From the NCBI RefSeq assembly GCF_006345805.1, contig NW_021833478.1, positions 1-28,708 on the forward strand: a stretch of DNA of 28,708 bases, written 5' to 3'. A program made the translations under genes and the position numbers. Source of the stretch: Octopus sinensis (lineage: Eukaryota). Below the pieces are notes generated by a model. That model ran no database searches, was not told where the DNA came from, and saw only the letters and a program-made list of their open reading frames with translations. Position 1 is the first letter of the stretch. Every line of letters starts with the position of its first letter. Shown piece by piece: positions 1,449 to 24,495 of the stretch.

Positions 1449-1877
1449 GGCGCAGAAGTGGCTGTGTGGTTCCACGTTCAGTCCCACTGTGTAGCACCTT
1501 CGGCAAGTGTTTTCTACCATAGCCTCGGGCCGAGCAATGCCTTGTGAGTGGATTTGGTAGATGGAAACTGAAAGAAGCCTGTCGTATATCGATATATATA
1601 TATATATATGTGTTTGTATGTGTGTGTGTGCGTGTGTGTGTATGTATTTGTGTGTGTGCGTATGCATTTGTGTTTGTCCCTCACCATCGCTTGACAACCG
1701 ATGCTGGTGTGTTTACGTTACCTTAAGTTAGCGATTCGGCAAAAGATATCGATGAAATAAGTATTTGGCTTACAAAAAATAATTTCCGGAGACGATTTGT
1801 TCGACTAAAGATGGTGTACCAGCATGGCTGCAGTCCATTCCCTGAGACAAGTAAAAGAATAAAAGAATAAAAGAATA
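1449..1877 (+). mobile_element. tRNA-derived SINE, family A, with a 27-bp deletion in the head
   Basis: A-box-like TGGCTGTGTGG, B-box-like GTTCAGTCCC, internal (TA)/(TG) tract and (AAAAGAAT)n tail. Aligns to copies at 9862, 16799 and 23156(-). Confidence 0.9.
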
Positions 1878-1879
1878 TA

Positions 1880-1926
<47 letters not shown>

Positions 1927-1965
1927 AAAAATGTAGATGATGCTAAAGTAATTTTATAAAAAAAA

Positions 1966-2007
1966 TTTCAGTACCGGTTTCAGTCATTGATACTTTTTCA
2001 ACTGTAA
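1966..2007 (-). ncRNA. Minimal type I hammerhead ribozyme-like motif (U3-A8 core variant) within a short (TA)n-flanked element at ~1925-2056
   Basis: Minus strand reads UUACAG-UUGAAAA-AGU-AUCAAUG-ACU-GAAA-CCGG-UA-CUGAAA: stem I CAG/CUG, stem II AGU/ACU, palindromic stem III ACCGGU, cleavage triplet GUA. Confidence 0.6.
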
Positions 2008-2269
2008 GTATGGAAAACAATTAAATTTTGAAAAAAAATTAAAAGAAAGTTTTCTTAAAAGAATATTTGTATGGTATTCAAATGCAAGTGGCATTCTCCT
2101 TCTTTCTGCCTGTCTCTGTCTCTCTTGTTTACTGTTATATATATATATATATATAATTTTCTTCTAATTTCTACAACAGCATTTTGCTGAGTCAGCCATA
2201 GATTCGTATGGCAAATATATGTACTGACTATCACCATTTAGCCAAGCCAAGTCAGCTTGTAATTTCAAG

Positions 2270-9701: not shown

Positions 9702-9861
9702 CAGCACTTCCTGTTTGTTTATCCCAAATTTTATTTAATTTGCTTTGCAAGAACAACTGTTTTATCGAAAGCATATATTGTTGTTAAATGCTCGAAATGT
9801 ATGAAACATGTAAAAGAAAAGAAAAAGTGTATGTATGTATGTTTGTATGTATAAAGATACA

Positions 9862-10276
9862 GGTTCATGCGTGGCTGTGTGGTAAGAAGCCTGCTTCCCA
9901 ACCACATGGATATGGGTTCAGTCACACTGCGTGGCACTTTGGGCAAGTGTCTTCTGCTATAGCCTCAGCCTGACCAAAGCCTTGTGAGTGGATTTTGGTA
10001 GACGGAGACTGAAAGAAGCCCGTCGTATACATACGTAATTATAGATCAACCTGTCCATGTCTTTGTGTCTGTGTTTTTTCTCTCATCACTATTTGACAAC
10101 CGGTGTTGGTGTATTGACGTCCCCGTAATTTAGCATTTCGGCAAAAGTGTCCGATGCTGTATAAATAAGTCCCGGTGTCGATTTATTCGACTAAAAGGCT
10201 TTCAACGAGGTGCTCCAGCATGGCCTCAGTCAAATGACTGACACAAATAAAAAAAAATAAAAGAATACAAGAATAC
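9862..10276 (+). mobile_element. SINE family A, full length
   Basis: Aligns end to end with the other A copies; AAGAATA tail. Confidence 0.92.
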
Positions 10277-16798: not shown

Positions 16799-17202
16799 GA
16801 CATAGGAGTGACTGTGTGAAAAGTAGCTTGCTTACCAGCCACATGGTTCCGGGTTCAGTCCCACACTGTGGCACCTTGGGCAAGTGCCTTCTACTATAGC
16901 CTCAGGCCGACCAAAGCCTTGTGAGTAGATTTGGTAGACGGAAACTGAAAGAAGCCCGTCGTATATATGTATATATAATATATAATGTGTGTGTGTGTGT
17001 GTGTGTATGTTTGTGTGCCTGTGTTTGTTCCCCCAATATCGCTTGACAACCGATGTTGGTGTGTTTACGTCCCCGTAACTTAGCGGTTCGGCAAAAGAGA
17101 CCGATAAGTCCTGGAATCGATTTGCTCAACTTAATGCGGTGCTCCAGTATGGCCACAGTCATATGACTGAAACAAATAAAAGAGTAAAATAGTAAAAGAG
17201 TA
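16799..17202 (+). mobile_element. SINE family A, near full length, preceded by (ATT)n at 16720-16795
   Basis: Aligns with the other A copies; (AAAAGAGT)n tail. Confidence 0.93.
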
Positions 17203-23155: not shown

Positions 23156-23414
23156 TCTTTTATTCTTTTACTTGTTTTAGTCATTTGGCTGCAGCCAAGC
23201 TGGAGCACTGTCTTTTAGTTGAACAAATCGACTGCAGGAGTTATGCTTTGTACGCCTTCTACTTATTCTATCGCTATCTTTTTGCCGAAGCGTTAATGTT
23301 ACGGGGACGTAAACACACCAACATCGGTTATCAAGCGACGGTGGGAGGACAAACACTAACACACAAATACATACACACACAAATACATACACACACACAC
23401 TAACATACATACAT

Positions 23415-23445
<31 letters not shown>

Positions 23446-23612
23446 AACATGACGGGCTTCTTTCAGTTTCCGCCTACCAAATCCACTGACAAGGCTTTGA
23501 TCGGCCCGAAGCTATAGTAGAAGACACTTGCCCAAAGTGCCTCGCAGTGGGACTGAATCTGGAACCATGTGGTTGGGAAGCAAGCTTCTTACCACACAGC
23601 CACTCCTGCGCC
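23156..23612 (-). mobile_element. SINE family A, full length
   Basis: Reverse complement starts GGCGCAGGAGTGGCTGTGTGGTAAGAAGCTTGC and ends AAGTAAAAGAATAAAAGA. Confidence 0.93.
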
Positions 23613-23709
23613 TTGTTTGAGAAGTAGTCATCACTTACCAATACCGTTCTCTCAAAACTACTGGCCTCTTGCCTAAGTTAGAAACAAGTCAGAAATAAGG
23701 CAGAAATAA

Positions 23710-24495
23710 GGCGGCGAGCTGGTAGAAGCGTTACCACGCCGGGCGAAATGCTTAGCGGTATTTCGTCTGCCGCTACGTACTGAGTTCAAATTCCGCCGAG
23801 GTCGACTTTGCCTTTCATCCTTTCGGGGCCGATTAAATAAGTACCAGTTACGTACTGGGGTCGATATAATCGACTTAATCCGTTTGTCTGGCCTTGTTTG
23901 TCCCCTCTGTGTTTAGCCCCTTGTAGGTAGTAAAGAAATAGGTATTTAATCTGCCGTTACGTTGTGAGTTCAAATTCCGCCGAGGTCGACTTTGCTTTTC
24001 ATCCTTTCGGGGTCGATTAAATAAGTACCAGTTACGCACTGGGGTCGATGTAATCGACTTAATACCTATGTCTGTCCATGTTTGTCCCCTCTATGTTTAG
24101 CCCCTTGTGGGTAATAAAGAAATAGGTATTTCGTCTGCCGCTACGTTCTGAGTTCAAATTCCGCCGAGGTCGACTTTGCCTTTCATCCTTTCGGGGTCGA
24201 TAAATTAAGTACCAGTTACGCACTGAGGTCGATGTAATCAACTTAATCCGTTTGTCTGTCCTTGTTTGTCCTCCCTCTGTTTAGCCCCTTGTAGGTAGTA
24301 AAGAAATAGGTATTTCATCTGTTTTTACGTTCTGAGTTCAAATTCCGCCGAGGTCGACTTTGCCTTTCATCCTTTCGGTGGGGTCGATAAATCTAGTACC
24401 AGTTACGCACTGGGGTCGATGTAATCGACTTAATTCCTTTGCCTGTTCTTGTTTGTCCCCTCTATGTTTAGCCCCTTGTGGGCAATAAAGAAATA
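23710..24495 (+). mobile_element. SINE family C with one head and four tandem 184-bp body units
   Basis: GGTATTT unit starts at 23757, 23941, 24125 and 24309 (period exactly 184). Each unit has B-box-like GAGTTCAAATTCC and T(T/G)(C/T)CTTTCATCCTTTCGGGGTCGAT-like domain. Confidence 0.95.

What the first reader, a model, noticed from the sequence alone, without database searches (positions are those of the whole stretch)
1966..2007. Topologically complete minimal hammerhead ribozyme with a U3-A8 compensatory core
Seen (minus strand): CAG-UUGAAAA-AGU(AUCAAUG)ACU-GAAA-CCGG-UA-CUG. Known: the hammerhead core CUGANGA has a C3-G8 tertiary Watson-Crick pair, and U3-A8 is a tolerated variant. Minimal type I hammerheads with a palindromic stem III that act as dimers typify Penelope-like elements and retrozymes. 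Inferred: both paired positions have changed together while all other core bases are intact, which argues for selection on cleavage in the source element. A plain CUGANGA scan would miss it.
Basis: partly seen in the sequence, partly recalled or inferred. Interest (0 to 1): 0.72.

Follow-up and report, generated by a model that had tools for sequence, protein, structure and literature searches.

The report
Hammerhead relic in Penelope-like transposon end
This is one decayed copy of a very common repeat, the tail end of a Penelope-like jumping gene in what is likely an octopus genome, and the whole family carries a hammerhead-shaped RNA motif (predicted to self-cut, untested) with a swapped core pair already published from blood flukes, so it is a new example of a known kind.

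Summary
The motif is real (1969-2004, minus strand; 1 hit in 300 shuffles). It lies in a 209-nt solitary repeat (1925-2133) set in a (TA)n run. The repeat is the 3' end of a Penelope-like element (PLE): longer copies carry RT, a CX4CX2C linker and GIY-YIG coding remains upstream on the same strand. U3-A8 is family-wide (80 of 88 copies sampled without regard to the core; C3-G8 in 0 of 88) and fixed in three subfamilies. The identical UUGAAAA core is published for Schistosoma mansoni PLEs (PMC4209133), and this scan has noted U3-A8 cores in octopus repeats before. Evidence for selection on the source element is modest: pair 10.1-11.1 occurs as A-U, G-U and G-C, but the strict core-conservation test is not significant (p=0.16), and no C3-G8 ancestor was found. 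This copy is 90% like its subfamily, has a broken fourth stem II pair and no partner copy in its contig, so it is most likely inert. One unusual point: the cleavage base A17 can pair with U3, which would compete with the active U3-A8 pair. Cleavage is untested.

The parts
1925..2133 (-). 5'-truncated 3' end (pseudo-LTR piece) of a Penelope-like retroelement, subfamily S2; no coding sequence, no 3' tail
   Evidence: 85-87% to long copies L062, L063; 144 of 160 columns equal the S2 majority; no tblastn hit of a PLE protein in the window
1969..2004 (-). Minimal type I hammerhead motif
2002..2004 (-). Stem I 5' strand (CAG), pairs with 1969-1971 (CUG)
   Evidence: inner two pairs kept in all three subfamilies, third pair A/A in S3
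1995..2001 (-). Core positions 3-9, UUGAAAA, with U3 (2001) and A8 (1996)
1982..1994 (-). Stem-loop II, closed by A10.1-U11.1; fourth pair broken in this copy by C>A at 1991
1973..1981 (-). G12-A13-A14 and the self-complementary ACCGGU (1978-1973) predicted to form stem III between two copies
   Evidence: dimer folding
1971..1972 (-). Predicted cleavage site, 3' of A17 (1972) in GUA; A17 is complementary to U3
   Evidence: hammerhead numbering (established knowledge); A17 in 85 of 87 copies
1875..1924 (.). (TA)n microsatellite at the 3' side of the element, likely the insertion target
2136..2155 (.). (TA)n run at the 5' side of the element

Best explanation
The motif is a hammerhead-type sequence in the 3' end of an abundant Penelope-like retrotransposon family whose copies all carry the U3-A8 core, and this particular copy is likely an inert, 5'-truncated fossil pasted into a (TA)n run. 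In the source element the motif would have worked as in other PLEs: two neighbouring copies in one tandem transcript pair through their ACCGGU palindromes, U3 pairs with A8, and the RNA is cut slowly after GUA, probably with help from the element's protein (all inferred from published PLE hammerheads; about 0.6 that the master ribozyme cleaved). After insertion the copies decay without regard to the motif (shown).
For: Family: 1309 first-look candidates, 1408 exact matches to a 17-nt upstream anchor against 0 for the control. PLE link: GIY-YIG remains upstream on the same strand in 6 of 60 loci; RT motifs in long copies; 9 of 12 long loci show ORF then this end piece in the same orientation; a 57% identical full-length protein has RVT_1 plus GIY-YIG; inverted end pairs in 16 of 120 loci and (TA)n flanks, both described for PLEs. 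U3-A8 family-wide: 81 of 100 listed with the core left free, 80 of 88 sampled by an upstream anchor, 96 of 100 with Y3/R8 free; kept in subfamilies S1, S2, S3; no core difference at 8% or more in contigs of four runs of four other organism labels. Structure kept between subfamilies: 10.1-11.1 is A-U, G-U or G-C, A-C in 2 of 78 (Fisher p=1.6e-4, one lineage event), while loop 2 changes sequence and length. Decay: only 55 of 88 copies keep all 14 core positions; G5 changed in 7 of 100. Same core published in a PLE (PMC4209133 supplement).
Against: Cleavage was not tested. Strict subfamily-level test: core 0 of 14 against flank 14 of 108 columns changed, p=0.16; core plus stems 3 of 30, p=0.47. 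Stems carry more private changes than flanks (7.4% against 4.4%). S3 has only 2 bp of stem I, S2 and S3 close stem II with A-U instead of G-C, and U3 pairs with A17 in the predicted dimers of S1 (P=0.84) and S2 (P=0.39), the analogue of the inhibitory C3-G17 pair (PMC3884650). No intact ORF and no upstream pLTR in 12 of 12 long loci; only 3 of 120 loci hold two same-strand copies.
Confidence: 0.85

Rival explanations
1. The ribozyme was already dead or nearly so in the master elements: C3 and G8 drifted to U and A in an A+T-rich end piece, U3 is trapped by A17, and the family spread without cleavage.
For: Strict conservation test not significant; U3-A17 pairing in predicted dimers; S3 stem I only 2 bp; hammerhead mutants did not affect insertion by an Anolis PLE in vitro (PMC11167929) and Naiad PLEs spread without hammerheads.
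Against: 0 of 14 core positions differ among three subfamilies; 10.1-11.1 moved through paired states only; the only two departures from the canonical core are the paired positions; U3-A8 hammerheads are reported active in vitro (PMC3088659).
Confidence: 0.3
2. This copy is an active, locally useful ribozyme in a host transcript.
For: All 14 core positions are intact in this copy.
Against: 55 of 88 sampled copies also have an intact core; stem II pair 4 is broken; no second copy in the 28.7-kb contig; predicted pairing of stems I and II in its homodimer is about 0.01; monomer hammerhead fold +5.8 against -6.2 kcal/mol.
Confidence: 0.04
3. The match is chance in A+T-rich DNA.
For: No Rfam match; folding z=-0.02; the descriptor was written after the fact.
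Against: 1 hit in 300 shuffles; it sits where PLEs carry hammerheads, in hundreds of copies (800 exact matches, control 0); the family's stem II is better than this copy's.
Confidence: 0.02

Closest known systems
Minimal hammerheads (min-HHR) of metazoan PLE pseudo-LTRs, U3-A8 variant of Schistosoma mansoni Cercyon elements (Cervera and de la Pena 2014, PMC4209133; read parts 1-2 of 4 and passages of supplement file 2)
   Same: Type I layout, short stem I, palindromic stem III, place in a PLE end, mostly solitary truncated copies and inverted pairs, and the same UUGAAAA core as their S. mansoni(4) row.
   Different: Here N17 is A (complementary to U3) where S. mansoni(4) has U; no extra base between 9 and 10.1; stem II is 4 bp and closed by A-U in two of three subfamilies; palindrome is 6 nt (ACCGGU); host is likely an octopus.
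Natural U3-A8 hammerheads of Perreault et al. 2011 (PMC3088659; read section 8 and passages)
   Same: Same compensatory core pair, stated there to be active in vitro.
   Different: Those were not described as PLE families in the section read; activity of this weak-stem, A17 context is unknown.
Neptune/Nematis-type EN+ PLEs (as defined in 10.1101/2021.04.23.441226; passages read)
   Same: RT, then CX2-5CxxC linker, then C-terminal GIY-YIG, pLTR with hammerhead, inverted end pieces, microsatellite targets.
   Different: Clade not tested by a tree; no intact or pLTR-flanked full-length copy found.
Hammerhead of the Anolis Poseidon element PAc (PMC11167929; passages read)
   Same: PLE pLTR hammerhead; no RNA-seq read ends at the cut site there either.
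   Different: Canonical C3-G8; cleavage shown, only with added protein, and dispensable for insertion in vitro.

Membership tests
Hammerhead ribozyme (minimal type I) | Core Y3-U4-G5-A6-N7-R8-A9, G12-A13-A14, A15.1-U16.1, H17 with a 3-8 Watson-Crick pair | tested here: met
   all present, U3-A8, A17
Hammerhead ribozyme (minimal type I) | Three helices around the core | tested here: inconclusive
   Stem I 3 bp (2 in S3), stem II 3 bp here and 4 in the family, stem III only between two copies; typical S1 and S2 dimers fold this way, this copy does not. The canonical family B also failed to fold as a hammerhead in this model (gap 13.7 kcal/mol), so the model is a weak judge.
Hammerhead ribozyme (minimal type I) | Covariation in stems | tested here: inconclusive
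   One pair (10.1-11.1) covaries between subfamilies; 2.3-1.3 changes from C-G to A/A or G/A; other pairs have the same majority letters in all three
Hammerhead ribozyme (minimal type I) | Match to an Rfam hammerhead model | tested here: not met
   E<=1; expected for minimal PLE motifs (own inference)
Hammerhead ribozyme (minimal type I) | Self-cleavage 3' of N17 | not testable with these tools
   needs an in vitro assay
EN+ Penelope-like element | Single ORF with RT and C-terminal GIY-YIG upstream of the end piece | tested here: met
   In broken form in family copies; Pfam GIY-YIG 22.4 bits, just under the 22.6 cut-off; full-length homologue P0005 has both domains. Absent from the window copy.
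EN+ Penelope-like element | Hammerhead in the pLTR; inverted or tandem end pieces; 3' tail on some copies | tested here: met
   16 inverted-only and 3 same-strand pairs in 120 loci; a shared 3' extension on some copies
EN+ Penelope-like element | ORF flanked by pLTRs on both sides | tested here: inconclusive
   0 of 12 long loci have an upstream pLTR; all 12 have broken ORFs that lack the homologue's start; 12 of 4147 first-look candidates examined
Neptune clade | CX2-5CxxC linker between RT and EN | tested here: met
   CGKFICGIC in L039; shared with Nematis
Neptune clade | RT phylogeny with reference elements | not tested
   no reference set fetched
Non-LTR retrozyme | Non-coding tandem monomers of a few hundred bases, each with a hammerhead | tested here: not met
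   88 of 120 loci single, 3 with same-strand pairs; end piece is continuous with PLE coding sequence

The most novel reading that the evidence does not exclude
The fixed U3 plus A17 combination is a built-in off switch: U3 pairs with the cleavage-site A17 and extends stem I until dimerisation or the element's own protein moves U3 to A8, so the family evolved a conditionally active hammerhead, with the youngest subfamily regaining the canonical G10.1-C11.1 pair through a G-U step.
Probability: 0.15. Interest if true: 0.55.

Novelty: new member of a known kind. Interest (0 to 1): 0.2.

Why it matters
It confirms that core-variant hammerheads missed by CUGANGA and Rfam scans are common in this genome, and gives a natural series (three subfamilies, three states of pair 10.1-11.1, U3 with A17) for asking how much activity a PLE hammerhead needs, which is an open question. 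The locus itself is ordinary transposon debris.

Tried and rejected
Rfam scan: only microsatellite-driven microRNA-type matches, no hammerhead. Monomer folding: no signal. Search for a C3-G8 ancestor: 3 family copies with C3-G8 (the other 2 matches there are unrelated DNA); about 0.4 expected from independent changes (my estimate from 2 of 100 and 2 of 100 single changes), all S2-like, and one has an inverted twin arm with U3-A8, so I read them as later changes, not as an ancestor; a small revertant lineage is not excluded. Lenient subfamily test (0 of 14 against 35 of 134, p=0.019) set aside because it counted indel columns singly and included the columns used to define subfamilies. CpG decay as the source of G-U at 10.1-11.1 rejected: 13 of 22 G10.1 copies have U11.1 while G12 is intact in 34 of 34 S1 copies. 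Sequencing runs: no RNA holder listed. Three RNA runs of one study (organism B, not known to be the window's species, about 6% of each read) gave 138, 113 and 53 reads, both strands alike, 75-85% running on into unlike sequence, and no pile-up of ends: this fits read-through of scattered copies and says nothing on cleavage. Literature: 'hammerhead ribozyme'+'octopus' 5 papers, none on this by title or start of abstract; 'U3-A8' 1 paper; an O. vulgaris repeat paper has 0 occurrences of 'hammerhead'; a 2026 retrozyme preprint has 0 of 'octopus' or 'U3-A8'. Lunse et al. (PMC5785218) is not held and was seen only as a reference entry; it and supplement file 1 of PMC4209133, which could not be searched, may list cephalopod variants. 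No covariance model or tree was built.

Full report
Observation. The minus strand at 2004-1969 reads CAG UUGAAAA AGU AUCAAUG ACU GAAA CCGG UA CUG. A dimer-type hammerhead descriptor, written after seeing the motif, finds only this site in the window; 300 dinucleotide shuffles gave 1 U3-A8 hit and none with a 4-nt palindrome. Rfam has no hammerhead among its 138 matches at E<=1 and the stretch folds no better than shuffles.

What it sits in. A search of the own genome with 1925-2110 gave 1309 first-look candidates, of which 40 were scored, at 88-92% identity for the full-length ones; a 17-nt upstream anchor has 1408 exact matches, control 0. The window copy spans 1925-2133 between two (TA)n runs and is the only copy in its contig. 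In 6 of the first 60 loci a GIY-YIG coding remnant lies upstream on the same strand. Long copies add RT motifs and a CX4CX2C linker, the arrangement described for Neptune and Nematis PLEs (10.1101/2021.04.23.441226, passages). Of 12 long loci extended upstream, all have broken ORFs, 9 have the end piece downstream in the same orientation and none has one upstream. An RT fragment is 87% identical to a protein named from Octopus bimaculoides and 57% to a 772-aa protein with RVT_1 and GIY-YIG, so the host is likely an octopus. Among 120 loci, 88 hold one copy, 16 an inverted pair only, 3 a same-strand pair and 13 none detected.

Is U3-A8 a family trait? Yes. With the seven core bases left free, 81 of 100 listed matches (of 358) read UUGAAAA and none CUGANGA (counted by eye). 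With Y3 and R8 free, 96 of 100 listed (of 800) are U-A, 2 C-A, 2 U-G, 0 C-G (counted by eye). For a sample blind to the motif I took 98 of the 100 anchor matches listed, dropped 10 that lacked homologous flanks on both sides, and found U3-A8 in 80 of 88 and C3-G8 in none. A third, older subfamily S3 (150 matches, 30 examined) has the same core. Contigs of four runs under four other organism labels show no core difference at 8% or more, while loop 2, 11.1, 1.3 and 1.4 do vary. Three family copies have C3-G8; they look like later changes (see Tried and rejected). So 3-8 is fixed, not covarying, and the direction of change rests on other PLE hammerheads, not on an ancestor seen here.

Selection on the source element. 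For: pair 10.1-11.1 is A-U in S2 (34 of 41) and S3, and G-U (13), A-U (10) or G-C (9) in the 34 S1 copies; A-C is 2 of 78 (p=1.6e-4, but a single lineage event). S1 is the youngest (flank identity to own majority 95.1%, against 91.7% and 88.6%), which suggests a move towards the canonical G-C pair (inferred). Loop 2 changes in sequence and length. Private changes are slightly rarer in the core than in flanks (31 of 1044 against 281 of 6317, p=0.03), which residual subfamily structure or alignment noise could explain. Against: the strict subfamily test gives 0 of 14 against 14 of 108 (p=0.16) and 3 of 30 with stems (p=0.47); stems carry more private changes than flanks; S3 has lost the third stem I pair. 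Copies decay after insertion: 55 of 88 keep all 14 core positions.

This copy. It equals the S2 majority at 144 of 160 columns and has C>A at 1991, breaking stem II pair 4. Its hammerhead fold costs +5.8 kcal/mol as a monomer (best fold -6.2) and lies 7.3 above the best homodimer, against 2.2 for a typical S2 copy whose best dimer has the hammerhead layout. The model ignores core contacts and also misfolds the canonical family B, so this is weak evidence. With no partner nearby it is most likely inert.

Mechanism (inferred). In a tandem transcript two copies would pair through ACCGGU, U3 would pair with A8, and cleavage would follow GUA, slowly: PLE minimal hammerheads showed no monomer and low dimer activity (PMC4209133), and the Anolis PLE hammerhead cleaved only with protein and was dispensable for insertion in vitro (PMC11167929, passages). 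One point peculiar to this family: A17 (85 of 87 copies; only 34 intact-motif matches have another base) is complementary to U3, and predicted dimers form U3-A17 with probability 0.84 (S1) and 0.39 (S2). The analogous C3-G17 pair is the proposed reason for poor cleavage at G17, though tertiary-stabilised ribozymes tolerate it (PMC3884650, passages). This could mean an attenuated, a conditional or a dead ribozyme.

Comparison with what is known. Natural U3-A8 cores were reported in 2011 (PMC3088659, section 8) and about 1300 in S. mansoni, found through the Cercyon PLE (PMC4209133); the supplement's S. mansoni(4) row has the same UUGAAAA core with U17. I found no paper on cephalopod PLE hammerheads, but one key paper and one supplement file could not be read. 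This scan holds 10 earlier findings with these words, 8 shown, which reach the same reading on other octopus DNA (unchecked AI notes); none was found by sequence.

Verdict. Real, correctly read, a new member of a known kind; the copy is a fossil and cleavage is untested. Interest 0.2.

Noticed in passing
G000 genome-wide; e.g. L259-L264, L029, L096 (not found in the window): A much larger hammerhead-like family: 15,228 exact matches to a 26-nt pattern, control 0. Core CUGUNGA: position 6 is U in 99 of 100 listed instead of the conserved A, while position 7 takes all four bases (about U 47, A 24, C 17, G 12, counted by eye). Stem II GAGC/GCUC, ACGU palindrome, U/A stem I; GIY-YIG remnant upstream in L261. 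A look-alike family with canonical A6 has 2,756 exact matches. A search for 'hammerhead'+'A6U' listed one paper, on twister ribozymes, not read. Possibly more interesting than the finding itself.
   Followed up: partly
L122-L132, L137, L139-L143, L145-L147, L149-L150, L222, L223: A young family with a canonical C3-G8 core and the same ACCGGU palindrome, in 355-360-nt tandem and inverted units without coding signature: retrozyme-like. No similarity to the finding's family outside the motif was detected.
   Followed up: partly
L121, L133-L136, L138, L144: Further single CUGANGA...GAAACCGGU matches, some with plausible stems (L134, L144); background of this pattern is 30 control matches against 157.
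   Followed up: no
window 23757-24495: Four tandem 184-nt copies (89% matches) of an interspersed repeat also seen in fetched loci; from recall an octopus SINE, not tested.
   Followed up: no
window 1467-1673, 9861-9995, 16804-16977, 23361-23613: Copies of another dispersed repeat in opposite orientations; the window is otherwise microsatellites and repeats, with no tRNA and no convincing long ORF.
   Followed up: no
L039:1260-1400: This copy joins the end of the ORF to the end piece with the middle of the 3' region missing; the gap between EN and motif varies by several hundred bases among long copies, partly through a (CTT)n tract.
   Followed up: no
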